DNA of 64,000 nt from Candidatus Cryptobacteroides sp. (GCA_045130395.1 JBGUPS010000014.1:22228-86227), one strand, 5' to 3'; positions 5,880 to 30,152 are shown, numbered from the stretch's first letter. Numbers and translations are program-made. The notes: generated from the letters alone by a model not told the origin.

Positions 5880-7886
5880 ATGGTTACGCGTAGAACAATC
5901 ATTTGGAGCGCCTCCGTGGCGATGCTCCTGGCGTTCCTCCTGGGTTGTGGGCCTACAAGGAAGCTCGGGCAGATCCGTCAGCAGGAACTGGCGGCTACGC
6001 TCGCCTTGTCCCGGAACGAAATCGAGGAGGAACGCAAGGTCATCGCGGTGGCCCGTCGGGACACCCTTACGGTGAAGGACGACAGCGGCAACACGGTGCT
6101 CATCATGAAGGCCGTCAAGGACGAGGCCTCAGGCGAAATGGTGGCTACAGACGTGCTGGATGCGGCGGTGATTACCGCCCGGTTCCGGAACGTGGCCGAA
6201 AGGAACGGCCGGATCGACCTTCGTTTTGAAATTATCGTCCCGGCACTGATGCAGGACACCCGCTGGCAGCTCCGTTTTTACCCGGAGATGTACATTCTGG
6301 AAGATTCTCTCGCCTTGGAACCCGTGCTCATCACGGGCAGCCAGTACCGCCGGCAGCAGCTGCGCGGCTACCAGCAGTACGAGAAATTCCTGAGGAGCAT
6401 CATCACGGACAGCACCCGCTTCCTGGACTACCGCAACCTGGAAATCTTCATCCGCCGCAACATCCCCGAGCTGTATGCCCTCAAGGCCGATTCCAGCTTT
6501 GTCTCGGACGATGCCTTCCGTTCGCTGTACGGCGTCACGGAGCGAGCCGCCATCGACCATTATACCAACCAGTTTGGGAAAAGCCTGAATGAGCGGCGGA
6601 AAAGCCGCCAGGATGCCATGTTCGCGCGGTATGTGAAGGTTCCTATCGTCACGGAAGGAATCCGGCTGGATACCGTTTTGCAGAACGCCGACGGGGATTT
6701 CGTGTACCATTACACGCAGCGAATTACCACGCGGCCCAAGCTGCGGAAAGTGGACGTGGTGCTGTCGGGGGAGATTTTCGAGAGCGACCAGCGGCTCTAT
6801 TCCATGGCCCGCTCACAACCGCTCACCTTCTACATCAGTTCCTTGTCCTCGTTCACGGATGGGACCGAACGCTACCTGACCCGCACCATCGAACGGCGTG
6901 CGGCGGCCAATACGGCCTGTTACGTGGATTTCCGGAGCGGGAAGTCCGAGGTGGAACCTTCTTTGGGGAACAACCGGGACGAGCTGGCGCGGATTCGTGA
7001 GAACATCGTCCAGCTGCTTTCCAACGCGACTTTCGAGCTGGATTCCATCGTGATTGCGACTTCGGCCTCCCCGGAAGGGACGCAGGCGGCCAACGATGCC
7101 CTGGCTAAACAGCGGGCAGGCTCCGTGGCTGCGTACTTCGACCGCTTCATCCGTTCCTACCGCGACTCGGTGCAGCGGGCGCTGGACCTGGAGGCCCGGA
7201 ACAGTTTTACCCTGACTGTCGGGGATGATGGAAAGGAGACGATGGGGCGCGCGAAAGCCCGGAAAGCGGACTTCCCCGCCATTGCCTTCAGTTCACGCTC
7301 GGCGGGTGAAAACTGGGACCTGTTATCGTATCTGGTAGACAGCGATTCCGTACTTACCGCATCGCAGAAGATGGCCTATGTCAAATGCTTACAAATCAAC
7401 GACTTGGACCAGCGGGAAAAGGAACTATCCCAGCGCGCTTTCTACCCCCGTTTGCGGGAGGTCCTCTACCCTCGCCTGCGCACCGTCCGCTTCGACTTTT
7501 TCCTCCACCGGAGGGGCCTTATCCAAGAGACGGTGCAGACGACGGAACTGGACACTACGTACATGAAGGGCGTCGCCGCGCTCAAAGACCGCGACTACAA
7601 ACTGGCCCTCACCTATCTGAAGGATTACAAAGACTACAATACCGCCATCGCCTATGTGTCGCTGGATTACAACGCCTCGGCCATAGCCATCCTGCAAGGT
7701 CTGGAACGGACGGCGCCGGTGAATTACATGCTCGCCATCGTGTATGCCCGCAACCAGGACGACCAGAATGCGGTCCAGTGTTATCTGGATGCCTGTAAAC
7801 AAGACCACAGCTATGTTTTCCGTGGAAATCTGGATCCCGAAATCTACGTCCTCATCCAGCGCTATGGCCTCAACAAAGACGAATAA
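5880..7886 (+). CDS. pilus-locus lipoprotein with OmpA-like segment and TPR-like C-terminus
   Basis: Lipobox LLGC; SASPEG..N..LA.QRA motif of the OmpA-like domain seen in Mfa loci; helical C-terminus. Confidence 0.65.
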   Translation: MVTRRTIIWSASVAMLLAFLLGCGPTRKLGQIRQQELAATLALSRNEIEEERKVIAVARRDTLTVKDDSGNTVLIMKAVKDEASGEMVATDVLDAAVITARFRNVAERNGRIDLRFEIIVPALMQDTRWQLRFYPEMYILEDSLALEPVLITGSQYRRQQLRGYQQYEKFLRSIITDSTRFLDYRNLEIFIRRNIPELYALKADSSFVSDDAFRSLYGVTERAAIDHYTNQFGKSLNERRKSRQDAMFARYVKVPIVTEGIRLDTVLQNADGDFVYHYTQRITTRPKLRKVDVVLSGEIFESDQRLYSMARSQPLTFYISSLSSFTDGTERYLTRTIERRAAANTACYVDFRSGKSEVEPSLGNNRDELARIRENIVQLLSNATFELDSIVIATSASPEGTQAANDALAKQRAGSVAAYFDRFIRSYRDSVQRALDLEARNSFTLTVGDDGKETMGRAKARKADFPAIAFSSRSAGENWDLLSYLVDSDSVLTASQKMAYVKCLQINDLDQREKELSQRAFYPRLREVLYPRLRTVRFDFFLHRRGLIQETVQTTELDTTYMKGVAALKDRDYKLALTYLKDYKDYNTAIAYVSLDYNASAIAILQGLERTAPVNYMLAIVYARNQDDQNAVQCYLDACKQDHSYVFRGNLDPEIYVLIQRYGLNKDE

Positions 7887-7900
7887 ACCATTTAAACAAT

Positions 7901-9064
7901 ATGAAAAAAAGCAGTTATATCTATGTCTGGGTGGCTCTGGCCACTCTGGGAGTGGTCGCCTGCAGCCGGCAGGTGGAGGAACTCCCCCAACCCCAGGCCG
8001 CGCCTGAGACGGGCCTGGTACAAGTCCAGGTTACCCCGCCGGATGCTCCCGGGATGCTCACCAAAGTGGACGGGAACGCCCTGCAGAACAACAACGAACG
8101 CAAAGTGAACAACCTGCAGGTATTCGTGTTCAGGAAAAACGGCAGCGAACCCGCCGGCAATCCGCTGGAAACCGACAAGTATGTGAGCGGGAGCACCACT
8201 ACCACCTTGAATACCCTCACCGGCGATAAAAGCATCTGGGCGGTCGTAAACGCCCCTCGCCTGTACGATGTCCGCACGGAGAAAACGCTGATGGAGAAGG
8301 TATCGTACCTGACGGAAAACCGTGCCGATAACCTGGTGATGTGCGGCCAGGCCTTGGCCAATGTGCAGCAATACAATGCCTCAGGCAGCGGAAACGTGGG
8401 AAGCATCACCCCGGTGGACCTCAGCGTCAGCCGCCTGTGCGCCCGCATTTCCCTGCATACCGTGGCCGCCGATTTCAGGGGGACCTCGCTGGAAGGTGCC
8501 ACGCTTACGCTCCTGGAGGCTTATGTGATCAATGCACCCGCCAGCGTCCGTCTGGACGGAACGCCCCTGAGCGCGAGTGAACTCAACAGCAGCGCCGCCT
8601 GGTACAACTTCCGCAAACTGGGGACATCGGCCGATGAACAGCTCCTCAACAACACGAATAAGATCCTGACGGAAAGCGGTTTATCCCTGAATGTAAGCAC
8701 TTCCGACGCACTGGTGGGCACGGCGGTGGACAAGCACTTCTATGTCTATCCCAACGTATCTTCCGTCAAGTCGGATGATGAATCGCCCGGCGCCCGCATG
8801 ACGCGGCTCATCCTGCACACGTATATCGGCGCGACGGCGGACGGACGCGAAGGCCGGGACAGCTATTACAGTTTCAACATCCCGGTGTACGGAAGCGGCA
8901 AAACCATCGAAGGCAACCATATCTACGACATTAGCAAAATCACCCTCACCAGCGAAGGAAGCCCCGTTCCTCCCCCGTTCCCCGACATGGAATACGGAAA
9001 AGTGAACGCCAGCATCACCATTGGCGAATGGGGTGGCACCGAAACCCTTTTATACGAACTCTGA
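7901..9064 (+). CDS. type V pilus major-pilin-like lipoprotein (FimA/Mfa1-like)
   Basis: Lipobox VVAC; E.KVNNLQVFVF, WAVVNAP, L.RL.ARISL, GNHIYDI..ITL and C-terminal I.EW donor-strand pattern. Confidence 0.7.
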   Translation: MKKSSYIYVWVALATLGVVACSRQVEELPQPQAAPETGLVQVQVTPPDAPGMLTKVDGNALQNNNERKVNNLQVFVFRKNGSEPAGNPLETDKYVSGSTTTTLNTLTGDKSIWAVVNAPRLYDVRTEKTLMEKVSYLTENRADNLVMCGQALANVQQYNASGSGNVGSITPVDLSVSRLCARISLHTVAADFRGTSLEGATLTLLEAYVINAPASVRLDGTPLSASELNSSAAWYNFRKLGTSADEQLLNNTNKILTESGLSLNVSTSDALVGTAVDKHFYVYPNVSSVKSDDESPGARMTRLILHTYIGATADGREGRDSYYSFNIPVYGSGKTIEGNHIYDISKITLTSEGSPVPPPFPDMEYGKVNASITIGEWGGTETLLYEL

Positions 9065-9906
9065 TGAAACGTTTTTATCCACTGGTACTCCTCGCGTGCA
9101 TGCTGGTTTCGTGCCGGTCGATGGTCGTGGAAGAACGGAGAAACTGTCCCAGTTTCCTCTTCTTCGACATTGCCAACCACGGACGCCTGGACTCCTATCA
9201 TCGCGTGCGCATTGCCGATTTCACCTATCCGGAGAACGATTTCCTGCTGGCCGACACTACAGTTGTAGGCCGTATCCAGGACAAGTCCTTCTACATGAAG
9301 GTACCCAAATCCGATGCCGTACAAGGATTCGGCATCGCCGGATTTGACGGGGCGCTCATCCGTCATGGGAGCGAGGTGGTGGTGGATGACGGGAAAGACT
9401 TTGTCCCCCTGTTCCGCTTTCAGTTCCGGACGCCGGCCCGCGAAGAGCAGGTGCTGGTTCCGGTGGAGCTCAGCAAGGACTATTGCGCCCTCACGCTCCG
9501 TTTCAGCCGGACCGACAGTTTCTCCGCACCCAAGGGCGTGTTTCCCTTCTACCTGCTTATCCGCAGCCAGACTGTGGGCATCGAAGGGCTGAGCGGCAAT
9601 CCGGTCCGCGGAGACTTTCAATATCTACCCCCGGAAGAGCAGGAAGGCGTTTTCCGAGCCATCGTCCCCCGCCAGGCCGACCGCTCCCTCACCCTGGAAA
9701 TCTGGGCCAAGGAGGGCCTGTATGTGGAAGAAGGGCTCGTGGGCAGCTACAACCTGTGGAACTTCATCCAAGAGAGCCATGAGGGATTCAGCTGGGAGGC
9801 CAAAGACCTTCCCGACCTGGATATCGAAATCGATTTTACCGAGAGCAAACTGGCTGTAACCGTACAGCCATGGATTTCCGAAGGCGGCATCCATTACGAC
9901 GCCTGA
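9064..9906 (+). CDS. type V pilus anchor/accessory lipoprotein (FimB/Mfa2-like)
   Basis: Lipobox LVSC; C-terminal VTVQPW; ATG overlaps the upstream TGA. Confidence 0.6.
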   Translation: MKRFYPLVLLACMLVSCRSMVVEERRNCPSFLFFDIANHGRLDSYHRVRIADFTYPENDFLLADTTVVGRIQDKSFYMKVPKSDAVQGFGIAGFDGALIRHGSEVVVDDGKDFVPLFRFQFRTPAREEQVLVPVELSKDYCALTLRFSRTDSFSAPKGVFPFYLLIRSQTVGIEGLSGNPVRGDFQYLPPEEQEGVFRAIVPRQADRSLTLEIWAKEGLYVEEGLVGSYNLWNFIQESHEGFSWEAKDLPDLDIEIDFTESKLAVTVQPWISEGGIHYDA

Positions 9907-15420: not shown

Positions 15421-15817
15421 GGGGGTGTTTTGGTTTTGACAGCGCTGATGCTGGACGGTAAGCATGTCGGGCCTCGGAACCTGTCCCGTAAAACGCAGAT
15501 TCCAAAAAATCAGTTGCCAACAACAACTATGCACTCGCTGCTTAATTTGCCAAGCAAATTAACTTAATCCGCCTCGCCAAGGCTGCGGGGCCGACGAGTA
15601 TCCCTCGGAACTTCCGCCTCATAAGGGCCGATCAAGGGGTATCATTCATTTGGGGCCGCTCCGGAGGACGCCTCTAAATCCGGCTAAGACTTAAAGGCTA
15701 AGGGAAGCTTCGCCCGCCTTCCGGCAGGGCTTCTTCGAAAACCAAAGGACGGATAAGCATGTAGAAAGCCGCCTGGTGCGACGTTTGGACAGCGGTTCGA
15801 GTCCGCTCACCTCCACC
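15421..15817 (+). ncRNA. ssrA: tmRNA
   Basis: 5' GGGGGTG pairs with CACCTCC(ACC) at 15808-15817; T-arm GGTTCGAGTCC; tag ORF 15516-15545 encodes ANNNYALAA*; TATTTTTG promoter at 15395-15402. Confidence 0.97.
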
Positions 15818-19063: not shown

Positions 19064-19272
19064 GCGTCCAATTCTCCAACATGAAGGGCCTGCCCAAGGG
19101 GCCTGTCGTGGTAGCGGGCACCCTGGGCCGGAGCCCCCTCGTTGATGAACGGGTCCGAACAGGCCTGGTGGATGTCAAAAATAAGAATTAATATTTTGAC
19201 ATTCCATTTTGGAAAAGCAAGTTTTTCTGTCGTCAATGGGAATATAATTCTTTGGGCGAAAGGCCAAAAACT

Positions 19273-19303
19273 TTTGTAGTTTCAAGAAATAGCATTACCT
19301 TTG
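19273..19303 (+). promoter_or_regulatory. Bacteroidetes primary-sigma promoter with no downstream sense ORF
   Basis: TTTG (19273-19276), 19 nt, TACCTTTG (19296-19303): full consensus. Confidence 0.65.
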
Positions 19304-19307
19304 TACC

Positions 19308-19406
19308 GGATTCGTCAAGGGGAATTCGGGAAGAAGGGATGACAACCCTCTCAAGGAAACTTGATGCGAGCCCCAAAAGTCGCTGCCTAAGCGGCTTTTA
19401 TTTTTT
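19308..19406 (+). ncRNA. candidate structured small RNA convergent on the LPD3-like gene
   Basis: Promoter upstream; P1 GGGG/CCCC plus TTCG/CGAG, P2 AGGG/CCCT, P3 TCAAG-GAAA-CTTGA; terminator AAAAGTCGC/GCGGCTTTT plus T-run; ends are approximate. Confidence 0.5.
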
Positions 19407-19841
19407 CCCCCTTGCCGAGATACAATACTGCACATACTCCCCCGTCGTTTCCTGCTTACCGACAATTAACAAGGCTGATTCCTGTCCCATAACCAAAATC
19501 TCCACATACGGTTTCTGGTTCTTATTATCCCGTTTGGGAGGTTTCTTCTTAATGAGTGCAGCGTGTGAGAGTATTTCAGTTAAGCGAAACACCTCCCGTG
19601 TGGACTCATAAGAAATAGAGGCCTGTCCAGAGGTCTCGTTTATTGACTTACCTTTTATGTATATGAATGCATTAAGGGATTTATTCCAAACACTTTTTGC
19701 AGGATTCTTCGCTATCCAATTTGAGTAAAAATCCTTAATCAGTTGTTTCCGAGCTTTTTTATCCTCTTTAGAGTCTCCCTTCGGTATTTCAATCCCAAGT
19801 ATATCATTGGGCGTTTTTCTATGTTTCCTCTTTCCAGACAT
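19398..19841 (-). CDS. small basic protein, LPD3/BECR-fold-like (putative RNase/toxin)
   Basis: Low-GC ORF; VWN.SL...I.I...SINET...A......LTEIL..A..I...P K..ILV...A.LIVG....YVQY.IS pattern resembles LPD3 (recalled, not searched). Confidence 0.5.
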   Translation of the reverse strand: MSGKRKHRKTPNDILGIEIPKGDSKEDKKARKQLIKDFYSNWIAKNPAKSVWNKSLNAFIYIKGKSINETSGQASISYESTREVFRLTEILSHAALIKKKPPKRDNKNQKPYVEILVMGQESALLIVGKQETTGEYVQYCISARGKK

Positions 19842-20068
19842 AGCTACTTTTGTCAATTTAGTGATTGTGAAAAGAATGATAAGACCACTAGGATTGGCCC
19901 TATTTCTTACTGAATTATTCTTGGTGAAGGGAGCCGCTTCCAGAAAGGAAGACTTACCATACTCCTGATTTCATTACCGGCCGATTCCAACGACCGTTCG
20001 CTTGGAACAAATATAGCCAATAAATCGCACGGAACAAAGAGAAACGGCCATTCTTTGCAGGACTCCCC

Positions 20069-20169
20069 CGTCATGTCGATTATTTAGGTCGATAAACTCG
20101 TCATGCCCGCCCCAGCACCTTGTCATACCCAACCCGAACATCGTCATGCCCGGCCTGATCGGGCATCTC
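20069..20169 (+). repeat. REP-like cluster
   Basis: Degenerate GTCAT half-sites ending in GTCATGCCCGGCCTGATCGGGCATCTC (20143-20169). Confidence 0.7.
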
Positions 20170-20180
20170 TCCCCTGTCCA

Positions 20181-20315
20181 GCCGCGATTACATCTGGAAC
20201 GGCCTCAAATAACGATTTTTTGTAAACGCGGTACGGATTTCAGCCCTTTTACATATAATCGCGGCCGCGATTGCAGCCCCAATACCGCAGAACAGCGTTT
20301 TTTTGCAAACGCGGC
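20181..20315 (+). repeat. about 135-bp four-arm repeat, copy 3
   Basis: Same architecture and orientation as copies 1 and 2. Confidence 0.8.
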
Positions 20316-20330
20316 CGAAGCGCCTCCCTC

Positions 20331-20421
20331 CGTCATGCCTCCCTCGCCCCGGTGATGCCCTCCCTGCATCCCGTCATTCCCGACCTGCACCCCGTCATGC
20401 CCGGCCCCGACCGGGCATCTC
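20331..20421 (+). repeat. REP-like cluster at the left edge of the R-M island
   Basis: About 21-bp period GTCATGCC-like half-sites, then the 28-bp palindrome at 20394-20421. Confidence 0.8.
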
Positions 20422-20502
20422 TTGCTCGGTCGCATCATGCCTCAATTCTTTCGAGAGTTGAGGCTTTTTCGTTATCTTTGTATATACCCATCCAAAGCAA
20501 TT

Positions 20503-21237
20503 ATGAACGAAGACCTTTTAAATCTCCATTTCTCGCCGATCCGAGACTACAAATACGCCAGTTTCTTCGAAGATGTGCAGTACAATGGCAAGATACTCTC
20601 AGACAAGGAGCGAAAAGAATATGTAGCCATAATCGACGAAACCATAGCGAATTACACCGAAGGTCTTCCCCTCATGTACGACATATTGGAAAGTACCAAA
20701 GACAAGCAGGACGAGTATCACGAAATTGACCGAACAGTCGTTTCCGTGATGCAATTTGTACTTATAACAATGATAGACAGTATGGTGGCCAGCAAATACT
20801 TCATTCTGGCTGATAGGGACTATGACAAGCGTTTCATGCGAGGCAAACTGATGGTCATCCTCAACGAGGGCTTTAAGCGCCTGTATGGCTTTAAAGAGAA
20901 GAACCGCAAGAGGTCTGAATGGAATCGGCTCATGCCACTGATGGATTACTTCCCGAAGAAGATTATTCGCCAGTATCAGGAATTAACATATCTTTTGCAA
21001 AGGCACGCAAAATCCTCCTCTTGGTGGAAGGATGAACGAGACTATGAGACACACTTGGATACGGAAAAATTGTATGTCTCTCGTCAGGAAGAAATCATTG
21101 AGAGCAAGGTGATGATAGACTCGATGAAACTGTTTAACACGCTGTTAGCTGTTAATGATTTCCTGTCTAATCTCCACACCTGCCTCTACAACTATGTAGT
21201 TGACAAATATAATCGCGGAGAATTGAGATACGAGTAA
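20503..21237 (+). CDS. hypothetical alpha-helical protein with an RxxxxH motif (HEPN-like)
   Basis: WWKDERDYETHLD (R-x4-H) in a helical-looking low-GC ORF; TATCTTTG promoter at 20473-20480. Confidence 0.45.
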   Translation: MNEDLLNLHFSPIRDYKYASFFEDVQYNGKILSDKERKEYVAIIDETIANYTEGLPLMYDILESTKDKQDEYHEIDRTVVSVMQFVLITMIDSMVASKYFILADRDYDKRFMRGKLMVILNEGFKRLYGFKEKNRKRSEWNRLMPLMDYFPKKIIRQYQELTYLLQRHAKSSSWWKDERDYETHLDTEKLYVSRQEEIIESKVMIDSMKLFNTLLAVNDFLSNLHTCLYNYVVDKYNRGELRYE

Positions 21238-21355
21238 TTTTTGAGTCGAAGAATGAGTTAAATTGCGGCCATCAAACACTCTCCTGCACTTTTTTTTACC
21301 TTTTCTCACTGAGAATCGCTATATTTGAACTTAAATACCACTGAAACCGAATAAT

Positions 21356-24300
21356 ATGGCCGAACTAACCATAGCCAAGTCCTTAAATAAGGCATATCGT
21401 CAGGTCTCTGTAGACCGGCCCATCTTCGACGGCTTCAAAGCCCAACTTCGTAACTATTACGAGCAAATTTCTGTCATAAATACGGAAGAAAAGCTCAAAG
21501 GTGACCTGATGGACTTTCTGAAATTTACGTTTTACGGCCATAATTATAAGGTTTCCCCCAACGGTGATATTGACTGCGCCATTCATCTAGGTGTTAGTGT
21601 TGAAACCCCTGTGGGTGTCATCTTTGAGGTAAAGAAGCCCACCAACACAAACGAAATGATCACGAAGGAGGATCTTAACCGAAAAGCCCTTCAGGAACTT
21701 CTGCTTTACTATCTTCGCGAACGCCACACCAAAAAAAACATACAGTTAAAGCAGTTAATCGTCACAAACATCTATGAGTACTTTGTCTTTGATGCTCGGG
21801 AGTTTGAGCGCCTTTTCTATTCCAACAAAAAGCTCATCAAGTGCTTTGAGGATTTTAACAGCGGAGCTCTGACCTCAGAAAAGACGGATTTCTTCTACAG
21901 GGAGATTGCTTCAGAATTTATTGCGAAAGTCGTAGACCAGATTACGTACACCTGGTTTGACATACGCAAATACAAGTCCTTCCTTGATACTGGCAATGAC
22001 AAGCGCCTCATTGAACTATTCAAGTTCTTCAGTCCTGAGCACTTGCTAAAGAAACGTTTCCAGAACGACAGCAACTCTCTCAACACCAAGTTCTACAGCG
22101 AACTGCTTTATATCATCGGACTGGAAGAAGTGGTGGAGAAGGAAAGCAACAAGCACATCATCACCCGCCGCAAGAAAGAAGAACGCAACCAGGCATCTAT
22201 TTTAGAAAACGCTATCACCATACTCGATAGCGAAGACTGGCTGGATAATGTCAAAGATCGTTTTTCCTTTGGGAAAGACCGCCAGGAGCAACTATTCAGT
22301 GTTGCCCTCGCGCTCACCATAGGCTGGGTAAATCGCGTCCTTTTCCTGAAACTCCTGGAAGCTCAATTGGTAAATTATCACAAAGGTGATCAGAGCTACG
22401 CCTTTATGCGTCCGTCAGTCATCTCTGACTATGACGAACTCAACAAACTCTTCTTTCAGGTCCTTGCCAAGCGTATTGCTGACCGACCGGAAAGTATCAA
22501 TTCTAAATATGGAAAAGTCCCTTACCTAAACAGCTCTCTGTTTGAGATTGGCCCTCTGGAGCGCCAAACCATCCGTATCAGCAGTCTTGAAAATAGCGAG
22601 CTCCCTCTGTTTAGTGGAACTGTACTCAAGGACGGTCAGAAACCTCGTTACGCCAAACTACCTACACTTCGCTATCTGTTGGAATTCCTCGATGCATATA
22701 ACTTCGCCAGCGAGGGCTCTGAGGAAGTGCAAGAACAGGCCAAGACACTCATCAACGCCTCCGTGCTAGGGCTTATATTCGAGAAGATCAACGGGCATCG
22801 AGACGGATCGGTCTTCACGCCTGGCGCTGTAACGATGTATATGAGTCGCGAGGCTATCCGACAGACCGTCGTCCGTCGCTTCAATGAAGAATTAGGCTGG
22901 TCATGCAAAGACTATGAGGCTTTGAAGAACAAGGACATCGAAGATTATGGTAAAGCGAATGCTATAATTGACTCACTCCGCATTTGCGACCCCGCAGTAG
23001 GCTCAGGCCACTTCCTCGTGTCTGTTCTTAATGAAATCATCCGCACGAAGTACGACCTTGGTATCCTTATCGACGATTCTGGCAAACGCATCAAAAAGCA
23101 GGACTACACGATTGATATTGAGAACGATGAACTGCTTATCTCCGATGAAGACGGCAATCCCGTTAATTATAATCCTGGAAACCAAGAGAGTCAACGCATC
23201 CAAGAAACTCTATTCAACGAGAAGCGCAAAATCATCGAGAATTGCCTTTTCGGAGTAGACCTCAACCCTAACGCTGTCAACATCTGCCGCCTCCGTCTGT
23301 GGATTGAGTTGCTAAAAAACGCATACTACACCAAAGATAGTGACTACACTGAGTTGGAGACCCTGCCAAACATTGACATCAATATTAAGGTAGGTAACTC
23401 GCTTTTGCACCGCTTTGACTTGGGGCAGGACATCTCTGAAATCCTCCGTAAGAATGGTATCTCCATCAATGACTACCGTAAGGCAGTTAGTGATTATAAG
23501 AATGCTCACAACAAAGAAGAGAAACGTAATCTGGAAAACTACCTGCGTCAAATTAAAGGGAATCTTCGCACCCAGATTGGTCTAAAAGACCCTAAAGTGG
23601 TTAGTCTTAATAAACTGAAAGACGAACTGGACAACCTTTTAGCTCCCCAACTTTTTGAGATTAGCAAGAAAGAGAAAGCTCAGCGTGATAAACAAGCAAA
23701 GGAACTGCAAGTCAAGATTGATAAGATTCAGGCAGAGGTAGATGAAATAAGGGACAACAAGATCTTCGTTGGTGCTTTTGAATGGCTCATCGAGTTTCCT
23801 GAGGTCCTGGATGAAGATGGTCGCTTCGTCGGATTCGACTGTGTTATTGGCAATCCTCCTTACATCCAACTCCAAAAGATGGGGGCAGATGCCGATGCGC
23901 TCCAGAAGATGAACTACGAGACATACGAGCGTACCGGAGATATCTATTGCCTGTTCTATGAGATGGGACTGAAACTTCTAAAGCAAGGAGCACTACTGTC
24001 TTTCATTACCTCAAACAAGTGGATGAGAGCCGGTTATGGTAAATCTTTGCGAAAGTATCTTTCTTCCAAATACAATCCTACGCTGTTGATCGACTTTGCA
24101 AACAATAAGATTTTTGATTCGGCGACTGTCTTGGTAAATATTCTTTCGTTAGAGAAATGCAACAATCAGGGGCAAACACTATCTTGTTCCGTTGAGGACG
24201 GTTTTGATATAAGTAAATTGAGCGATTATGTGCAGACACACATACAGGTATCGTCTTTCCAAACTGATGATGCTTGGTCTATTTTGAGTGAAATTGAACT

Positions 24301-25156
24301 TAGTATAAAGCGTAAGATTGAGGAGGCAGGAGTACCTCTCAAGGATTGGGATGTGGAAATGTACCGAGGTGTTCTTACGGGATACAATGATGCGTTCATT
24401 ATAACATCTGATAAACGTGAAGAGATCTTGATGAGTTGTGCTGATGAATTCGAGAGAGAAAGGACGGCGGAAATCATTCGACCGATTCTACGTGGCCGAG
24501 ACATCAAGCGTTACGGTTACGAGTGGGCAGACCAGTATATCATAGCCACATTCCCATCCCGCCAGTATGACATAGATAATTATCCTACTCTTAGGGAGTA
24601 TCTTCTGTCTTTTGGCATTGAACGCCTGGAGCAAACAGGGAAAGAGTACTTTATAAATGGTGAGAAGGTAAAAGCCCGTAAGAAAACCAACAATAAATGG
24701 TTTGAAACTCAGGATAACATCAGTTATTGGGACGAATTTTTGAAGCCAAAGATTATTTACCCTAACATGACTAAGTTTTTACCCTTCGTCTATGACACAT
24801 CTGGCCTTGTCACAAACCAGAAGTGCTTTATTATCACGGGTAAACGACTTGCATTCCTCACGGCGTTTTTAAATTCGTCCCTTTTCAAATTTTGTTTTGC
24901 CGACAAGTTTCCCGAACTGCAGGGTAAAACAAGAGAACTTAGTAAAATATTTATGGAGGAGATCCCTGTAATGGAAGTTAGTGAGGACGATGAAGCTCGA
25001 TTCCTCAAGATGGTTGAGGCAACCCAGGAGAGTATCTCGAAAGAAAAACTCTTAGAGATTGATAATGCCATCTTCGACCTGTACCAACTAACAAAGGTAG
25101 AGAGAGACTATGTCGGTTTTATTGATTACGGAGATATGCAAGCTCTTTCTCAGTAA
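21356..25156 (+). CDS. Type IIG restriction-modification enzyme (nuclease, N6-adenine MTase, TaqI-C-like specificity domain)
   Basis: N-terminal D..IH....IFEVKKP..QELLLYY nuclease-like motif; CDPAVGSGHF (motif I); VIGNPPY (motif IV); C-terminal PILRGRDI..Y and KIIYP TRD-type motifs. Confidence 0.92.
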   Translation: MAELTIAKSLNKAYRQVSVDRPIFDGFKAQLRNYYEQISVINTEEKLKGDLMDFLKFTFYGHNYKVSPNGDIDCAIHLGVSVETPVGVIFEVKKPTNTNEMITKEDLNRKALQELLLYYLRERHTKKNIQLKQLIVTNIYEYFVFDAREFERLFYSNKKLIKCFEDFNSGALTSEKTDFFYREIASEFIAKVVDQITYTWFDIRKYKSFLDTGNDKRLIELFKFFSPEHLLKKRFQNDSNSLNTKFYSELLYIIGLEEVVEKESNKHIITRRKKEERNQASILENAITILDSEDWLDNVKDRFSFGKDRQEQLFSVALALTIGWVNRVLFLKLLEAQLVNYHKGDQSYAFMRPSVISDYDELNKLFFQVLAKRIADRPESINSKYGKVPYLNSSLFEIGPLERQTIRISSLENSELPLFSGTVLKDGQKPRYAKLPTLRYLLEFLDAYNFASEGSEEVQEQAKTLINASVLGLIFEKINGHRDGSVFTPGAVTMYMSREAIRQTVVRRFNEELGWSCKDYEALKNKDIEDYGKANAIIDSLRICDPAVGSGHFLVSVLNEIIRTKYDLGILIDDSGKRIKKQDYTIDIENDELLISDEDGNPVNYNPGNQESQRIQETLFNEKRKIIENCLFGVDLNPNAVNICRLRLWIELLKNAYYTKDSDYTELETLPNIDINIKVGNSLLHRFDLGQDISEILRKNGISINDYRKAVSDYKNAHNKEEKRNLENYLRQIKGNLRTQIGLKDPKVVSLNKLKDELDNLLAPQLFEISKKEKAQRDKQAKELQVKIDKIQAEVDEIRDNKIFVGAFEWLIEFPEVLDEDGRFVGFDCVIGNPPYIQLQKMGADADALQKMNYETYERTGDIYCLFYEMGLKLLKQGALLSFITSNKWMRAGYGKSLRKYLSSKYNPTLLIDFANNKIFDSATVLVNILSLEKCNNQGQTLSCSVEDGFDISKLSDYVQTHIQVSSFQTDDAWSILSEIELSIKRKIEEAGVPLKDWDVEMYRGVLTGYNDAFIITSDKREEILMSCADEFERERTAEIIRPILRGRDIKRYGYEWADQYIIATFPSRQYDIDNYPTLREYLLSFGIERLEQTGKEYFINGEKVKARKKTNNKWFETQDNISYWDEFLKPKIIYPNMTKFLPFVYDTSGLVTNQKCFIITGKRLAFLTAFLNSSLFKFCFADKFPELQGKTRELSKIFMEEIPVMEVSEDDEARFLKMVEATQESISKEKLLEIDNAIFDLYQLTKVERDYVGFIDYGDMQALSQ
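24220..24241 (+). repeat. left 22-bp inversion repeat inside the R-M gene
   Basis: GAGCGATTATGTGCAGACACAC, encoding S-D-Y-V-Q-T-H; exact reverse complement of 25962-25983. Confidence 0.95.
24476..24504 (+). repeat. nested 29-bp inverted repeat, left copy
   Basis: ATTCGACCGATTCTACGTGGCCGAGACAT; exact reverse complement of 25699-25727. Confidence 0.9.
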
Positions 25157-25982
25157 AGTCAAACATTGATTCAACAATCTCCTCTAATTGCTTTTCCTTC
25201 AGGCCATCTGAAGCCTCCGAGTTAAGCACCTTTTCAATTGATGCCACGACATCTTCCCGAGGCTGCGGTACGGGAATCTGTTCTACAAACATAGGCTTAT
25301 ACTCAAAGAATCCGCCGTTTCTTACGACACCCAGATTTCGGATGTAGTAGTCAGCCACCTTTGAGTTTAGTACTGCCAAAAGGTATTGACTTCCAGGGAC
25401 AATCATACATGCTGGGGCGTTGATAAACATGTTCTCGGGAGCCATTGCATAGCTACCTCTGGCATTGAGATTACCCCAAACTATTTTTGTCTTCGAAAAT
25501 TCGTCCACATAAGCGCAGTTCCTAAGATTGTATGGAGTATCTCCTTTGTCAGCGCGAGATTCAATCTTATCCCAGTAATAATCAAGATGTTGCTTGATTG
25601 CCGGATAATCTTCAATCTTTATTCGTTCCATGGAGTCTTTCACCCCATTATGAGTGTTGATGAGCCATAAATCAGCCCAATCATAACCGTATCGCCTTAT
25701 GTCTCGGCCACGTAGAATCGGTCGAATAATTTCTGCCGTACTCTGTCGCTCATCATCACAGTGGCAAGATTTAAGGATCTCGTTTCGTTTGGCAGAATCA
25801 ATGATAAAAGCATCATTAAATCCCGTCTTGATGCCATAATTGATTTGGATATCCCAATCCCTTAGGGGAGCGCCTATGGCTTCAATCTTTGCCATAATAG
25901 ATCGTTCTATATCGGATAGTATAGACCAGGATTCCGATGATGCGAAGTGGGAATTAACCGCGTGTGTCTGCACATAATCGCT
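25119..25982 (-). CDS. silent alternative C-terminal specificity module of the Type IIG enzyme
   Basis: No MTase or nuclease motifs; begins at the IR with SDYVQTH in frame; paralogous to residues about 956-1266 of the R-M protein (WSILS.IE.SI..KIE, LRDWD, GFNDAFII, RPILRGRDI.RYGY.WAD). Confidence 0.85.
   Translation of the reverse strand, partial: SDYVQTHAVNSHFASSESWSILSDIERSIMAKIEAIGAPLRDWDIQINYGIKTGFNDAFIIDSAKRNEILKSCHCDDERQSTAEIIRPILRGRDIRRYGYDWADLWLINTHNGVKDSMERIKIEDYPAIKQHLDYYWDKIESRADKGDTPYNLRNCAYVDEFSKTKIVWGNLNARGSYAMAPENMFINAPACMIVPGSQYLLAVLNSKVADYYIRNLGVVRNGGFFEYKPMFVEQIPVPQPREDVVASIEKVLNSEASDGLKEKQLEEIVESMFDFTEKELAYLRNQ
25699..25727 (-). repeat. nested 29-bp inverted repeat, right copy
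   Basis: ATGTCTCGGCCACGTAGAATCGGTCGAAT. Confidence 0.9.
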
Positions 25983-25983
25983 C
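25962..25983 (-). repeat. right 22-bp inversion repeat
   Basis: GTGTGTCTGCACATAATCGCTC; directly abuts the recombinase stop codon (25984-25986). Confidence 0.95.
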
Positions 25984-26589
25984 CTATTCTTTCAGAAAAG
26001 AATGAATATACCTGCCCAGAGTGTTCCGGTCAACCTTGCAGATCTTTGCAATCTTCCGCTGTGATACTCCGGCCTGAAGCAATTCTATAATCAGAGTCCG
26101 TTTGGGGAAGAGTTTGCGCTTGCTTTCCTTGGTCTTCCTACCAAGAGGACGCCCAAGTATTACACCTTCAGCTTTCTTTCTTGCCAGTGCTTCCTTTGTT
26201 CGCTGGCTAATGAGATTGCGTTCTATCTCAGCAGAGAGGCCAAAAGCGAAGGCCAGCACTTTACTCTGAATGTCCTCACCAAGTCTATAATTGTCCTTGA
26301 TAGTCCACACCCTGCAATCCTTCGTCATACAGATGTTGAGAATCTCCATAATCATAAATAGATTACGTCCTAACCGGGAGAGCTCGGCGCAAATAATCAA
26401 ATCATCTTTCTGTACCCGGTTCAACAGACGTCCCAACTCACGCTTGTTGTAATTCTTTGTTCCGCTAATGGTTTCTTCTATCCAGCCGTCTATACTCATA
26501 GACTCCTTGGAGCAGAAGTTATTGATTTCAAACCTTTGATTTTCAACAGTCTGTTTGTCACTGCTGACTCTGATGTAGCCGTAAATCAT
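25984..26589 (-). CDS. serine site-specific recombinase/invertase, Mpi family
   Basis: MIYGYIRVSSDKQTVENQRFEI (catalytic Ser), ELSRLGRN, SKVLAFAFGLSAEIERNLISQRTKEAL, C-terminal HTH. Confidence 0.92.
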   Translation of the reverse strand: MIYGYIRVSSDKQTVENQRFEINNFCSKESMSIDGWIEETISGTKNYNKRELGRLLNRVQKDDLIICAELSRLGRNLFMIMEILNICMTKDCRVWTIKDNYRLGEDIQSKVLAFAFGLSAEIERNLISQRTKEALARKKAEGVILGRPLGRKTKESKRKLFPKRTLIIELLQAGVSQRKIAKICKVDRNTLGRYIHSFLKE

Positions 26590-26866
26590 ACCTGTTAATT
26601 TTTATAGAGTTTCTGTGTATACATAAAGTTGCTTATATTTGTATATCTTATTTTCCCTCATCATATAAATGGTACCGCCTCATACTTAAAGAATTTTTCA
26701 CATGGTTCCCAAAACGTTTCATCATCAACGGTATATCAGCGCAACTACGACTGGAAGAAAAAGAATGTGATAGTTTTCGTATTGTCGGGATTTCTTAGGG
26801 ATTATAAGCAAAATTTCCTACAATAGGGTCAAACATATTTCTTCAATTGGTGTCAAGAGTTTAATT

Positions 26867-27607
26867 ATGGACTGGAGTATCATTCAACTGTTTCTCGTAA
26901 TTATTACTCCTTTCGCTCTCGTTATTATATGGCGTAGGACGAAAGGGAAACGGGGTGAGAAGCAGGTGGCCGTCCTACTATCACTCTTACCCAAGAAGCG
27001 ATATAGGGTTATTAATGATCTTTTACTACTATCAGGAGGACATAGCACACAGATAGATCACGTGGTTGTTTCTATTTATGGCATCTTTGTCATTGAAACA
27101 AAATACTATCAAGGATGGATATATGGAGGTGAGAACAGTGAATACTGGACGCAAAACATTTATGGGCACAAGTACCAACTCCGTAACCCTCTATGGCAAA
27201 ATCAGGGTCACTGCAAAGCAATTGCTAAACTGATCGGTGATAATGGATCCATACCTATTCATAGTATTGTCGCTTTCTCGCGCCAGGCCAGCCTTAAAGT
27301 AGACCGATCACTTCCTGTTATGTATTGGTGGCGTGTAGTACCATTCATCAAGGGTTTCAAGCAATCGGTGATAACAGATATACAAGCCGAAGACGTCTAT
27401 AATTTGCTCCTATCAGCAAATGTGACCGATAAGAAAGCAAGAAAGCAGCACGTATCCAGCGTGAAGCATAATCAAGCCCGTCGTAACACTGACGTTGCTA
27501 ATGGAAGATGTCCTCGTTGTGGAGGCAGTTTAGTGCTTCGAAATGGCAAGTATGGTCGTTTTTATGGCTGCTCACATTATCCAAATTGTAAATACATTTT
27601 GAAATAG
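26867..27607 (+). CDS. NERD-domain nuclease-like protein with a topoisomerase-type C4 zinc finger
   Basis: N-terminal TM; GE..V, QIDHVVVS.YGIFVIETK, NPL.QN..H; CPRCGG.LVLR.GKYG.FYGCS.YP.C. Confidence 0.88.
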   Translation: MDWSIIQLFLVIITPFALVIIWRRTKGKRGEKQVAVLLSLLPKKRYRVINDLLLLSGGHSTQIDHVVVSIYGIFVIETKYYQGWIYGGENSEYWTQNIYGHKYQLRNPLWQNQGHCKAIAKLIGDNGSIPIHSIVAFSRQASLKVDRSLPVMYWWRVVPFIKGFKQSVITDIQAEDVYNLLLSANVTDKKARKQHVSSVKHNQARRNTDVANGRCPRCGGSLVLRNGKYGRFYGCSHYPNCKYILK

Positions 27608-27793
27608 ATTAGTTTGTCCCCCACCATAACCCTTTTAGCAGCAAATACTTTGAGGAGAGCGGCTTACGCTCGCAGGAAACATCGTCATAAGAACTAGGCA
27701 TGACGGAGGGGGTACACTCAAACAGCAGGGTACCGTCGTTAGAGGCAGATTTTGACGGAGGGGGGCCAGGCAGGCGGCAGGGGTCCGGCGGAA

Positions 27794-27821
27794 GAGATGC
27801 CCGGTCGGGGCCGGGCATGAC
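27794..27821 (-). repeat. REP-like palindrome at the right edge of the R-M island
   Basis: Exact reverse complement of 20394-20421 and 17812-17839. Confidence 0.8.
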
Positions 27822-28090
27822 GGGAAAGGGTTGTATTGCAAGGAGCATAACATTCCGTTCTAATATTTGACAGGAAGATACAACTACCTTATACCTGCAA
27901 CGGCTTCCGTTTGCGGGAAACATAGTCATTGGAGCCGGGCATGGCGAAAGAGGCTGGTATGCAAGTAGCTTATTTTCAGACTATTACGAGTATCGACACT
28001 CCCTCTTTTGAAGGGGGCTCGATTACTTATCTTACTGAGTATCTGCGGATTATGTGCCAGGCATAGCCGGCCATGATGACATGATGAAAA

Positions 28091-28629: not shown

Positions 28630-28959
28630 CTATTTCAGGATTAGTTCCTGGATGAATGAGGCGGTGCGGTTGTCGGGGGTGAAGAGGTCGTCGGTGGAGA
28701 GGAAGGCGTTCATTTTTTCCACGAGGACGTCGCGCTGGAAATACAGCTGGTTGCGGATGACGGAGGAGCTGAGGGTAATGTAGAGCTTGCCGCTGCGGAA
28801 GAAGCGTTTGAGGGTGAAGGGGGCGGCGCCGGAGCAGGCGTCCCAGGCGGCGAAAACCCGCTGGGTGTTGAGTCCGGTGGCCAATTTCATGGATTTAATG
28901 TACTGCTGGACAATCTCTTCCATGCCCACCGCTTCCTTTCTATGGATCCTCACTGCCAT
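28630..28959 (-). CDS. DUF721/DciA-family protein
   Basis: AAW....G, GKLYITLSSSVIRNQL; directly downstream of recF as usual. Confidence 0.8.
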   Translation of the reverse strand: MAVRIHRKEAVGMEEIVQQYIKSMKLATGLNTQRVFAAWDACSGAAPFTLKRFFRSGKLYITLSSSVIRNQLYFQRDVLVEKMNAFLSTDDLFTPDNRTASFIQELILK

Positions 28960-28962
28960 AGC

Positions 28963-30057
28963 CTATACACGGGTAAAAGCACCGCCGGAAGCGGTAAAGT
29001 AAGCGCGGTCTTCGGTAATGCGGTCCACGATGCCGGAAAGGCGCGCGGCGTCCGTATCCGTAATAAAAATCTGGCCGAAATCCTGGCCGGCGACCATGCC
29101 AATTAAATTGGAAATTCTATTCAAATCCAGCTTGTCGAAGACATCGTCCAGGAGCAGCATGGGCGCAAAGCCGTAGGAGCGCTTCATGATTTCGTACTGC
29201 GCGAACTTGAGCGAAACCAGGAACGATTTCTGCTGTCCTTGCGAGCCGGCGCGGCGGATAGGATGGCCATTCATTGTAAAAAGGAAATCGTCCCGCTGGA
29301 CGCCGGAAGCCGTGTAACGCAACTTAAAGTCTTGCTCACGATGGGCCGCGAAAACCTCTGACAATGAACCGTTAAACAAGTCGGACTTATACTCGATGGC
29401 CACCTCTTCCCCACCCCCGGAAATGAGTTTGTAATACTCCGCCACAACGGGCTGCAAGTCCTTGGCCAGACGCGCGCGACCAGCATGCACCGTAGCGGCC
29501 GGACCGGCCATCCGTTCGTCCAGAACGGCGAGCAGCGAAGCGTCCGGAAGCGGGTCCTTGAGGATTTTATTGCGCTGGGCCAGCAGGCGGTTATAGGCCT
29601 GCACAGCAGCCAGATATTCGCGGTCCATCTGCGACAGAACGGCATTGGAAAGCCGCCGGCGTTCTTCACCAGACTCACTCACCAGGGCGATATCCCCGGG
29701 CGAAACCATCACCAGCGGAAGCACGCCGATGTGCTCGCCCATGCGCACGTAGGGCTTATCGTCCCTAACCAGCTTTTTCCCGTCCTTGGTGACCTGCAGG
29801 GCAAAACGCGACTCCAGGCCGTTCTCCATGGCATAGGTGCCGCCTAAAGTAAATCCGGCCGTTCCATAGCGGAAATTGGCCGCATCCGGGGCCGGGAAAG
29901 CGCTTTTGGTCATGGACAAATAATAGATAGCATCCAGCAGATTGGTCTTCCCTTCCCCATTGTTGCCGCTGATACAGTTGACGTTGGGGCTGAACGAAAG
30001 TTCCTGGAAAGAGATGTTCCGGAAATCCTGTACTACTATTTTCTTGAGTGTGGGCAT
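28963..30057 (-). CDS. recF: DNA replication/repair protein RecF
   Basis: FRN, GNNGEGKTNLLDAIY (Walker A), GSQGQQK, LLLDDVFDKLD. Confidence 0.95.
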   Translation of the reverse strand: MPTLKKIVVQDFRNISFQELSFSPNVNCISGNNGEGKTNLLDAIYYLSMTKSAFPAPDAANFRYGTAGFTLGGTYAMENGLESRFALQVTKDGKKLVRDDKPYVRMGEHIGVLPLVMVSPGDIALVSESGEERRRLSNAVLSQMDREYLAAVQAYNRLLAQRNKILKDPLPDASLLAVLDERMAGPAATVHAGRARLAKDLQPVVAEYYKLISGGGEEVAIEYKSDLFNGSLSEVFAAHREQDFKLRYTASGVQRDDFLFTMNGHPIRRAGSQGQQKSFLVSLKFAQYEIMKRSYGFAPMLLLDDVFDKLDLNRISNLIGMVAGQDFGQIFITDTDAARLSGIVDRITEDRAYFTASGGAFTRV

Positions 30058-30152
30058 AAACGAGCGCAATAATCAATTGCAAATATATAATATTTTTCGT
30101 AAATTTGCGGGCTAATTGCAAGTCAAACGATAAGTAAAAACAACAAAATAGT

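What the first reader, a model, noticed from the sequence alone, without database searches (positions are those of the whole stretch)
21356..26589. Invertase-driven specificity switch (shufflon) in a single-chain Type IIG R-M enzyme
Seen in sequence: a perfect 22-bp inverted repeat (GAGCGATTATGTGCAGACACAC at 24220-24241; reverse complement at 25962-25983) brackets about 1.7 kb. This segment holds the expressed C-terminus on plus and a paralogous C-terminus with no nuclease or MTase motifs on minus. The repeat reads S-D-Y-V-Q-T-H in frame in both. Inversion would give a full-length enzyme of 1242 aa instead of 1266 aa, with the same nuclease/MTase core and a new specificity region. The two tails overlap by 38 bp and both stay intact. 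A serine recombinase stop codon touches the right repeat. Established knowledge: TRD inversion is well known for Type I hsdS genes, and Type IIG C-terminal domains determine the recognition sequence. Inference: this locus switches methylation and restriction specificity (phage defence and possibly a phasevarion), an architecture much less described for Type IIG.
Basis: partly seen in the sequence, partly recalled or inferred. Interest (0 to 1): 0.92.

Follow-up and report, generated by a model that had tools for sequence, protein, structure and literature searches.

The report
Restriction enzyme with invertible specificity domain
A gut Bacteroidales bacterium carries a one-protein restriction-modification enzyme whose DNA-reading tail can be exchanged, whole or in parts, with a silent spare copy by DNA inversion.

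Summary

The gene is a full-length Type IIG restriction enzyme-methyltransferase with intact nuclease and methyltransferase motifs. The silent cassette is a second TaqI_C-type specificity domain. The recombinase is an Mpi-family serine invertase.

Evidence for inversion:
- The one metagenome that holds this strain has a 38-nt contig that is exactly the inverted left junction, at depth 4 against 8.3 for the native form.
- The two tails are a mosaic of three segments, each in two forms. All six complete loci examined carry complementary expressed and silent cassettes.
- Homologues with identical 955-aa bodies carry different tails.
- Inverting one assembly in silico at two repeat pairs reproduces another assembly with 0 mismatches in 2363 bp.
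- Rumen metagenomes hold inner-repeat inversion junctions.

This points to a nested switch with up to three sites and eight states.

Whether the states differ in specificity, and whether the invertase catalyses the inversions, remain inferred.

Inversions of Type IIG specificity domains have already been published (Milman 2023; B. fragilis 2025; gut methyltransferase variants 2025). This is a new member of a known kind.

The parts
21320..21327 (+). TATATTTG, a match to the Bacteroides -7 promoter consensus TAnnTTTG, 29 nt upstream of the start codon. It is also the left limit of the module conserved in other genomes.
   Evidence: motif; homology to other loci starts at 21320-21354; consensus as quoted in PMC4747536
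21356..25156 (+). Single-chain Type IIG restriction enzyme-methyltransferase, 1266 aa in the present orientation. Domains: DUF7149 (nuclease region), DUF7814, Eco57I-type N6-adenine methyltransferase, TaqI_C specificity domain.
21566..21634 (+). PD-(D/E)xK-type nuclease motif: D71-I-D73 ... E91-V-K93
22982..23008 (+). Methyltransferase motif I (ICDPAVGSG, aa 543-551)
23852..23863 (+). Methyltransferase motif IV (NPPY, aa 833-836)
24220..24241 (+). IR0 left arm, the outer recombination site, inside the expressed gene (encodes SDYVQTH)
   Evidence: contigs of run X1 fork exactly at 24241
24221..25156 (+). Expressed tail, cassette A (311 aa). Segments: seg1 24242-24466, link 24467-24520, seg2 24521-24730, link 24731-24754, seg3 24755-25153.
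24476..24504 (+). IR1 left arm, 29-bp perfect core within the 80-nt, 85% repeat 24452-24531 (encodes IRPILRGRDI)
24730..24740 (+). IR2 left arm, 11-bp perfect core GGACGAATTTT within the 35-nt repeat 24724-24758 (encodes DEFxKPKI)
25119..25982 (-). Silent tail, cassette B (287 aa plus stop). It has no start of its own and an in-frame TGA four codons upstream. Segments: seg1 25961-25737, seg2 25682-25506, seg3 25481-25122.
25496..25506 (-). IR2 right arm, 11-bp core
25699..25727 (-). IR1 right arm, 29-bp perfect core
25962..25983 (-). IR0 right arm; abuts the invertase stop codon
   Evidence: X1 contigs fork at 25983
25984..26589 (-). Mpi-family serine invertase, 201 aa (Resolvase domain with catalytic YIRVSSDKQ, C-terminal HTH). 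It lies on the same strand as, and directly upstream of, the silent cassette.

Best explanation
Window 21320-26631 is a self-contained 5.3-kb module with three parts: a solitary Type IIG restriction-modification gene, one promoterless spare copy of its C-terminal specificity region in inverted orientation, and an Mpi-family serine invertase.

How it most likely works:
1. The invertase (inferred) recombines short inverted sites that lie at equivalent, protein-conserved positions in the two tails.
2. Inversion at the outer site IR0 (22 bp, SDYVQTH) swaps the whole tail.
3. Inversion at IR1 (core ATTCGACCGAT, IRPILRGRDI) swaps seg2 and seg3.
4. Inversion at IR2 (core GGACGAATTTT, DEFxKPKI) swaps seg3 only.
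5. The nuclease-methyltransferase body (aa 1-955) and its promoter stay fixed. Every one of the eight arrangements keeps one full-length open gene (1266, 1255, 1253 or 1242 aa) and one silent complement.
6. Seg2 and seg3 both lie inside the TaqI_C specificity domain and are only about 20% identical between the two forms. The arrangements should therefore recognise different DNA sequences (inferred). A clonal population would then hold cells with different restriction and methylation specificities. This is bet-hedging against phage, with a possible side effect on gene regulation.

Shown:
- the anatomy;
- inversion products at IR0 in this strain's sample;
- inversion products at IR0, IR1 and IR2 in sister lineages.

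Inferred:
- that the adjacent invertase is the catalyst;
- that specificity changes;
- that IR1 and IR2 are still used in this particular strain.
For: Anatomy and families.

This strain:
- Run X1 holds 100% of the sampled words of the region.
- Its contigs fork exactly at the ends of the two repeat arms, 24241 (inner end of the left arm) and 25983 (outer end of the right arm).
- A 38-nt contig (depth 4) consists of 24212-24241 followed by GCGGTTAA, which is the reverse complement of 25954-25961. That is the left flank joined through IR0 to cassette B. The native path has depth 8.3.

Relatives:
- L001 and L002 (Bacteroidales metagenome-assembled genomes, or MAGs, from reindeer and rumen) have the same three-part layout, with a perfect 22-23-bp repeat at the same codons but other tail arrangements.
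- IR0 differs between genomes at 1-3 positions, yet both arms always match.
- Complement rule: expressed/silent are aaa/bbb, abb/baa, bab/aba, aba/bab, aab/bba and baa/abb in the 6 of 6 complete loci examined.
- Seven of the eight expressed combinations occur among the 120 best homologues.
- Many pairs with 100% identical 955-aa bodies have different tails. Lineages with at least 99.5% identical bodies hold up to 5 tail states.
- In silico, L004 inverted at IR0 and IR2 equals L009 with 0/2363 mismatches. L004 inverted at IR1 equals L008 with 4/2363. All three come from different samples.
- L014 and L015 exchange seg1 exactly (0 mismatches in 264 nt), with the boundary in an 11-bp shared core.
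- Rumen run X27 has contigs joined on opposite strands at IR1 and IR2. Run X24 shows both native and both non-native 35-nt junction contigs at IR1.
- All eight window states stay open, with exactly the lengths seen in homologues.
- The invertase is 84-93% identical in all loci, including one lineage where it sits 3 kb away.

Published precedent: PMC9881135, PMC13064476, PMC11741434.
Against: - Only assembler contigs were available for this strain, not reads.
- The reciprocal junction (right flank/IR0/cassette A) is absent from X1 contigs.
- An 87-nt variant contig of similar depth (3.7) shows that a second close allele is present in the same sample. The inverted junction could therefore belong to a co-resident strain and not to a switching subpopulation.
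- No IR1 or IR2 junction was seen in X1.
- In the window the IR2 arms share only 11 perfect bases, 21 of 24 overall.
- Nothing here shows that the invertase acts on these sites. The three sites share at most a weak core (GRNCGAW).
- No methylome, cleavage or expression data exist, so the change of specificity is inference.
Confidence: 0.85

Rival explanations
1. In this genome the switch has two states only. IR0 is the only site the invertase uses. The segment mosaics at IR1 and IR2 arise rarely, by general homologous recombination or gene transfer, over evolutionary time.
For: - IR0 is the only repeat perfect in every locus.
- IR1 and IR2 are short or imperfect in the window and in L011-L015.
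- X1 shows heterogeneity only at IR0.
- The three sites have no convincing common sequence.
Against: - The complement rule holds in 6 of 6 loci.
- In-silico inversions at IR1 and IR2 reproduce other assemblies with 0-4 mismatches in 2363 bp.
- Native and non-native IR1 junction contigs co-occur in one sample.
- The exchange in L014/L015 is bounded by an 11-bp core, which is too short for RecA-type recombination (the length requirement is from general knowledge).
- Identical bodies carry tails that differ at single segments.
Confidence: 0.2
2. This is a frozen relic. The spare cassette and repeat are left over from a formerly active switch, or from a duplication. The different arrangements seen in metagenomes are fixed differences between strains, with no switching today.
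For: - The reciprocal junction is missing in X1, and a second allele of similar depth is present.
- All evidence comes from assemblies of mixed communities.
Against: - Both cassettes are intact open frames in every locus.
- The repeat arms stay identical within each genome while differing between genomes.
- The invertase is intact and 84-93% conserved.
- Identical gene bodies occur with up to 5 tail states.
- The 38-nt junction contig joins unbroken contigs of this strain on both sides.
- Similar loci were shown by long reads to be heterogeneous within cultures (PMC9881135).
Confidence: 0.06
3. The main role is epigenetic, as a phasevarion. Switching the methylation motif changes the expression of many genes, and restriction is secondary or lost.
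For: By analogy only: phase-variable Type I and Type IIG methyltransferases alter expression in other bacteria (Cj0031 and SpnD39III, cited in PMC9881135; gut epigenetic phase variation in PMC11741434).
Against: - The nuclease motif D..ExK is intact.
- The module sits in a low-GC island and moves between chromosomal sites next to other defence genes: XhoI R-M, GmrSD, Schlafen/AlbA-type. This is typical of defence cargo.
- No expression or methylome data were available.
Confidence: 0.25

Closest known systems
Programmed inversions in solitary Type IIG genes, homologues of C. jejuni Cj0031 (Milman, Yelin & Kishony 2023, NAR, PMC9881135; e.g. NZ_CP082886.1:2883305-2887030)
   Same: - One long Type II R-M gene with an inverted partial copy of its 3' part, repeats inside the coding sequence and a recombinase nearby.
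- Mpi-family serine recombinases were enriched as neighbours.
- Coexisting variants were shown by long reads.
- The listed gene is 3726 bp, the same length as the L001 homologue gene (L001:5136-8861, 1241 aa).
   Different: I could not fetch that record, so identity of family is unproven. The paper does not describe segment-wise reassortment within one specificity domain for this class, as far as the held text shows.
Bacteroides fragilis Type IIG phase-variable regions PVR2 and PVR3 (Eng Microbiol 2025, PMC13064476), and gut-microbiome methyltransferase structural variants with up to three repeat pairs (bioRxiv 2025, PMC11741434)
   Same: - Inversion of the TRD-coding part of a fused Type IIG enzyme in gut Bacteroidales.
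- 1 or 2 repeat pairs give 2 or 4 genotypes.
- A Phocaeicola vulgatus methyltransferase has three matching repeat pairs.
   Different: Here three nested pairs give eight arrangements. The organism is an uncultured Bacteroidales of about 56% GC. No motif data exist for this family.
Type I hsdS invertons (S. pneumoniae SpnD39III; B. fragilis Type I system, PMC7641763)
   Same: - Nested repeat pairs of different sequence and length reassort halves of a specificity determinant.
- One expressed copy sits beside silent partial copies.
- The result is multiple methylation and restriction specificities in a clone.
   Different: - There the target is a separate S subunit with two whole TRDs, each reading a half-site, and the recombinase is usually a tyrosine type.
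- Here the target is the tail of the catalytic polypeptide itself, and the exchanged units are parts of a single TaqI_C-type domain.
Phage Mu G segment / Gin and P1 C segment / Cin (serine invertase tail-fibre switches; from general knowledge)
   Same: - A small serine invertase gene lies just outside one repeat arm.
- The repeat lies inside a coding sequence.
- Inversion replaces the C-terminal, specificity-determining part of a protein while the N-terminal part and promoter stay fixed.
   Different: - The target there is a tail fibre, with one repeat pair and two states.
- Gin and Cin need Fis and an enhancer, which is unknown here.
- The recombinase here belongs to the Bacteroidales Mpi family.
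BREX type 1 pglX inversion (Lacticaseibacillus rhamnosus GG; PMC9881135)
   Same: A Type IIG-like methyltransferase has its specificity region rewritten by nested inversions against a partial inverted copy, with a recombinase adjacent.
   Different: - PglX is part of a six-gene system and has no nuclease.
- Its middle part is exchanged through non-functional one-inversion intermediates.
- Here every arrangement is a complete gene.

Membership tests
Type IIG restriction-modification enzyme | Nuclease, methyltransferase and target recognition domain in one polypeptide | tested here: met
   Pfam DUF7149 + DUF7814 + Eco57I + TaqI_C. PADLOC REase_MTase_IIG PDLC03612 matches over aa 8-1249, E 2.6e-262.
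Type IIG restriction-modification enzyme | Intact catalytic motifs: PD-(D/E)xK nuclease and N6-adenine methyltransferase motifs I and IV | tested here: met
   D71-x-D73...E91-x-K93; ICDPAVGSG at 543; NPPY at 833
Type IIG restriction-modification enzyme | Cuts at a fixed distance from an asymmetric site and methylates that site | not testable with these tools
   Needs enzyme assays or a methylome
Mpi-family serine DNA invertase | Matches the curated family model above its cut-off; N-terminal resolvase domain with catalytic serine; C-terminal HTH | tested here: met
   NF009949, 335.8 bits against cut-off 272. Resolvase aa 2-143 plus HTH aa 163-199. YIRVSSDKQ is invariant in six loci.
Mpi-family serine DNA invertase | Catalyses inversion between the repeats | not testable with these tools
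   Only adjacency and co-conservation are shown
Gene-altering programmed inversion (sense of PMC9881135) | Inverted repeats overlapping a long gene and a shorter inverted partial paralogue | tested here: met
Gene-altering programmed inversion (sense of PMC9881135) | Different arrangements coexisting in one population | tested here: inconclusive
   In X1 one inverted-junction contig (depth 4 against 8.3) was found, but no reciprocal junction, and a second allele is present. The case is clearer in the sister lineage: X24 has native and non-native IR1 junction contigs. Contigs only, no reads.
Gene-altering programmed inversion (sense of PMC9881135) | Related genomes differ by inversions bounded by the repeats | tested here: met
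Shufflon in the strict sense (R64 type) | Rci tyrosine recombinase acting on several 19-bp sfx repeats that separate multiple independent segments | tested here: not met
   The recombinase is a serine type. There are two cassettes with three nested repeat pairs, not a row of segments. It works like a shufflon but is not a member.
Phasevarion | Switching of a methyltransferase changes expression of a set of genes | not testable with these tools
   No methylome or transcriptome for this organism

The most novel reading that the evidence does not exclude
One Mpi-family serine invertase acts on three unlike, very short sites nested inside a single TaqI_C-type recognition domain. Crossover cores are as short as 11 bp and share only GRNCGAW. 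Sub-domain modules, not whole recognition domains, are thereby reassorted into up to eight working enzymes.

The 5.3-kb module moves between chromosomal sites across gut and rumen Bacteroidales and draws on at least six seg3 alleles. It would be a natural library of chimeric Type IIG recognition domains with defined junctions.
Probability: 0.45. Interest if true: 0.6.

Novelty: new member of a known kind. Interest (0 to 1): 0.42.

Why it matters
Switchable restriction specificity lets a clonal gut population present several different barriers to phage and foreign DNA, and several methylomes, without changing gene content.

This family is common in human and ruminant gut metagenomes. Its tails recombine at fixed junctions inside one recognition domain. 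The naturally occurring hybrids could therefore show which part of a Type IIG recognition domain reads which part of the target sequence, which would help enzyme engineering.

For genome annotation, the "partial methylase" next to such genes is a working spare part, not a pseudogene.

The principle itself is already published. The value here is a well-documented additional family, not a new mechanism.

Tried and rejected
- Raw reads: every run that holds the region is kept only as assembler contigs. Orientation fractions and read pairs could not be examined, and the reciprocal IR0 junction was not found.
- Milman et al. repeat tables: the supplement is not held. The record NZ_CP082886.1 cannot be fetched with these tools, so family identity with their solitary Type IIG locus is untested.
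- The listing of cluster members: gave no accessions or organism names. The window's own protein is not on record for contig look-up.
- Sigma-70 promoter scan: no better than shuffles. The Bacteroides -7 motif was used instead.
- PDB sequence search: only the methyltransferase core matched (M.BseCI, CamA). I did not pursue structure prediction, because it could not decide specificity.
- Larger defence system including the flanking genes (271-aa ORF, NERD protein, LPD3 ORF): rejected, because none is conserved beside the module elsewhere.
- Common recombination-site motif among IR0, IR1 and IR2: only a weak GRNCGAW core emerged. I do not rely on it.

Full report
**Check of the observation**

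The 22-bp sequence GAGCGATTATGTGCAGACACAC is at 24220-24241 and its exact reverse complement at 25962-25983. No other copy exists in the window even with three mismatches, and none appears in 100 shuffles.

- The plus-strand ORF 21356-25156 encodes 1266 aa.
- On the minus strand a frame is open from 25982 to 25122, with its stop at 25119-25121 (287 aa). It begins with the same S-D-Y-V-Q-T-H and is closed four codons upstream by TGA.
- The recombinase ORF 25984-26589 is on the same strand as the silent cassette. Its stop codon is the three bases next to the repeat.
- The two tails overlap by 38 bp (25119-25156).
- In-silico inversion gives an open 1242-aa gene.

**What the parts are**

The long protein has DUF7149, DUF7814, an Eco57I-type methyltransferase and a TaqI_C specificity domain. 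It matches a PADLOC Type IIG model end to end, E 2.6e-262. It carries D71-x-D73...E91-x-K93, DPAVGSG and NPPY.

The silent cassette has only TaqI_C and is 38% identical to the expressed tail.

The recombinase passes the NCBIfam equivalog for Mpi-family serine invertases, 335.8 bits against a cut-off of 272.

A Bacteroides-type -7 box, TATATTTG, lies 29 nt before the start codon.

The region from about 19.2 to 27.8 kb is about 42% GC in a roughly 56% GC background. Only 21320-26631 is shared with other genomes. The neighbouring 271-aa ORF, the NERD protein and the LPD3 ORF are not shared. The unit is therefore the gene, the spare cassette and the invertase.

**Evidence of inversion in this strain**

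One public run, X1 (a gut metagenome), holds all sampled words of the region. Only assembler contigs are kept for it.

- The contigs fork exactly at 24241 (inner end of the left arm) and 25983 (outer end of the right arm). A 22-bp repeat alone cannot cause this with 31-mers.
- A 38-nt contig of depth 4 consists of 24212-24241 followed by GCGGTTAA, the reverse complement of 25954-25961. This is precisely the eight junction words expected for left flank/IR0/cassette B. It links unbroken contigs of this strain on both sides.
- The native path has depth 8.3.

Caveats:
- The reciprocal junction is not among the contigs.
- An 87-nt variant contig of depth 3.7 on 25512-25598 shows a second close allele in the sample. 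The junction may belong to a co-resident close strain and not to a switching subpopulation.

**Evidence from relatives**

A scan of one genome per species with cassette B found two Bacteroidales MAGs, from reindeer and rumen, with the same layout.

Each has a perfect 22-23-bp repeat at the same codons. The repeat differs from the window's at one or two positions, but both arms within a genome are always identical.

Aligning the tails showed that they consist of three segments, each in a form a or b, separated by two conserved links, AEIIRPILRGRDIxRY and DEFxKPKI. The arrangements are:

| Locus | Expressed | Silent |
|---|---|---|
| window | aaa | bbb |
| L001 | abb | baa |
| L002 | bab | aba |

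**Tally in the protein database**

The 120 best homologues, 77-90% identical, include seven of the eight possible expressed combinations, plus further seg3 alleles.

Many pairs have 100% identical 955-aa bodies but different tails. Lineages with at least 99.5% identical bodies hold up to five tail states.

Contigs fetched for such proteins gave three assemblies from different samples with the same chromosomal context and arrangements aba/bab, aab/bba and baa/abb. The complement rule holds in all six complete loci.

That lineage has three perfect repeat pairs of 21, 25 and 24 bp.
- Inverting L004 in silico at IR0 and IR2 gives L009 with 0 mismatches in 2363 bp.
- Inverting L004 at IR1 gives L008 with 4 mismatches.

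In another lineage (L014/L015) seg1 is exchanged exactly, with 0 mismatches in 264 nt. The boundary lies in a shared core of only 11 bp, ATTCGACCGAT. That is too short for general homologous recombination (from general knowledge) and points to site-specific exchange.

Rumen metagenomes that hold the L002 lineage show two things:
- contigs joined on opposite strands at IR1 and IR2 (X27);
- in one sample (X24), both native 35-nt junction contigs at IR1 plus two non-native ones.

**Mechanism**

The best reading is a nested inversion switch.
- IR0 exchanges the whole tail.
- IR1 exchanges seg2 and seg3.
- IR2 exchanges seg3.

All eight arrangements of the window sequence keep one full-length gene of 1266, 1255, 1253 or 1242 aa, exactly the lengths seen among homologues.

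Seg2 and seg3 lie within the TaqI_C match (aa 1043-1205). They are 19% and 22% identical between forms, against 53% for seg1. Seg3 has at least six alleles across lineages. Seg2 and seg3 are therefore the likely specificity determinants.

The invertase is 84-93% identical in all loci. It is also present where an XhoI-type R-M has been inserted between it and the Type IIG gene.

Not shown:
- that this invertase is the catalyst;
- that the arrangements differ in specificity;
- that IR1 (29-bp perfect core) and IR2 (11-bp core) are used in this particular strain.

The three sites share at most GRNCGAW (IR0 GAGCGATTAT, IR1 GACCGATTCT, IR2 GGACGAATTT). I regard this only as a lead.

**Comparison with what is known**

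- Milman et al. 2023 (PMC9881135) predicted, and confirmed with long reads, programmed inversions in Type II R-M genes. These include solitary homologues of the Type IIG enzyme Cj0031. They also found Mpi-family recombinases enriched as neighbours.
- A 2025 paper reports TRD inversions in two B. fragilis Type IIG systems through one or two repeat pairs (PMC13064476).
- A 2025 preprint reports gut methyltransferase variants with up to three repeat pairs and 2-8 genotypes (PMC11741434).

The principle and the architecture are therefore already described. What this analysis adds is a well-supported further family with three nested sites inside one recognition domain, its wide spread in gut and rumen Bacteroidales, and very short crossover cores.

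Mechanistically it also resembles the Gin/G-segment tail-fibre switch of phage Mu (general knowledge) and the Type I hsdS invertons. It is not an R64-type shufflon.

**Verdict**

- Observation: confirmed.
- Interpretation: supported, with the switch richer than proposed.
- Novelty: new member of a known kind.
- Interest: moderate.

Noticed in passing
window 20099-20425 and 27790-27960; also 16135, 17790, 17811, 28105, 32604, 52401: A GC-rich hairpin repeat (core CGTCATGCCCGGCC...CGGGCATCTCT) has 12 copies in the window against 0.9 expected. A perfect 33-nt inverted pair (20391-20423 / 27792-27824) brackets the 7.4-kb low-GC island. The repeat has word depths in the thousands in ruminant gut metagenomes. 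It may be a REP/MITE-like element or an insertion hot spot.
   Followed up: partly
window 19200-27800: A low-GC island (about 42% against about 56% in the flanks) holds the switch module plus unrelated genes, so the module is probably acquired DNA. Elsewhere the same module sits beside rplS/DnaJ, DapF/LacI or GmrSD genes.
   Followed up: partly
window 26867-27607 (+): A NERD nuclease-related domain is fused to a topoisomerase-type zinc ribbon. It has weak NERD similarity to PglW and MAD6 defence kinases. It is not conserved beside the module in other genomes.
   Followed up: partly
window 20422-21237 (+): A 271-aa ORF directly upstream of the Type IIG gene has no hit in Pfam, NCBIfam or PADLOC and is not conserved in related loci.
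   Followed up: partly
window 25512-25598 (run X1): An 87-nt contig of depth 3.7 with 4 differences represents a second allele of cassette-B seg2 in the same sample. Its depth is close to that of the inverted-junction contig, which hints at a co-resident close strain.
   Followed up: no
L011, L012, L013 tails (about 7869-9660): Seg3 of the recognition domain exists in at least six unrelated-looking alleles across lineages, while seg1 and seg2 have two forms each. Two loci with the same chromosomal context (L011, L013) carry different seg3 pairs, so cassettes are also replaced by transfer.
   Followed up: partly
L004 939-3908: In a human-gut lineage an XhoI-type restriction enzyme and its methyltransferase lie between the invertase and the Type IIG gene. 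The invertase there acts, if at all, from 3 kb away on the far side of the Type IIG gene from the invertible segment.
   Followed up: no
L003 1678-10429 (Candidatus Scalindua MAG): A relative with a 52% identical tail lies in a row of three same-strand genes (1188, 1272 and 457 aa), with no inverted cassette and no invertase. This is a non-switching form of the family in another phylum.
   Followed up: no
window 15421-15817 (+); 28630-30069 (-): A tmRNA gene (tag ADSKKSVANNNYALAA) lies at the first position. DciA-like and RecF-like genes flank the island on the right.
   Followed up: no
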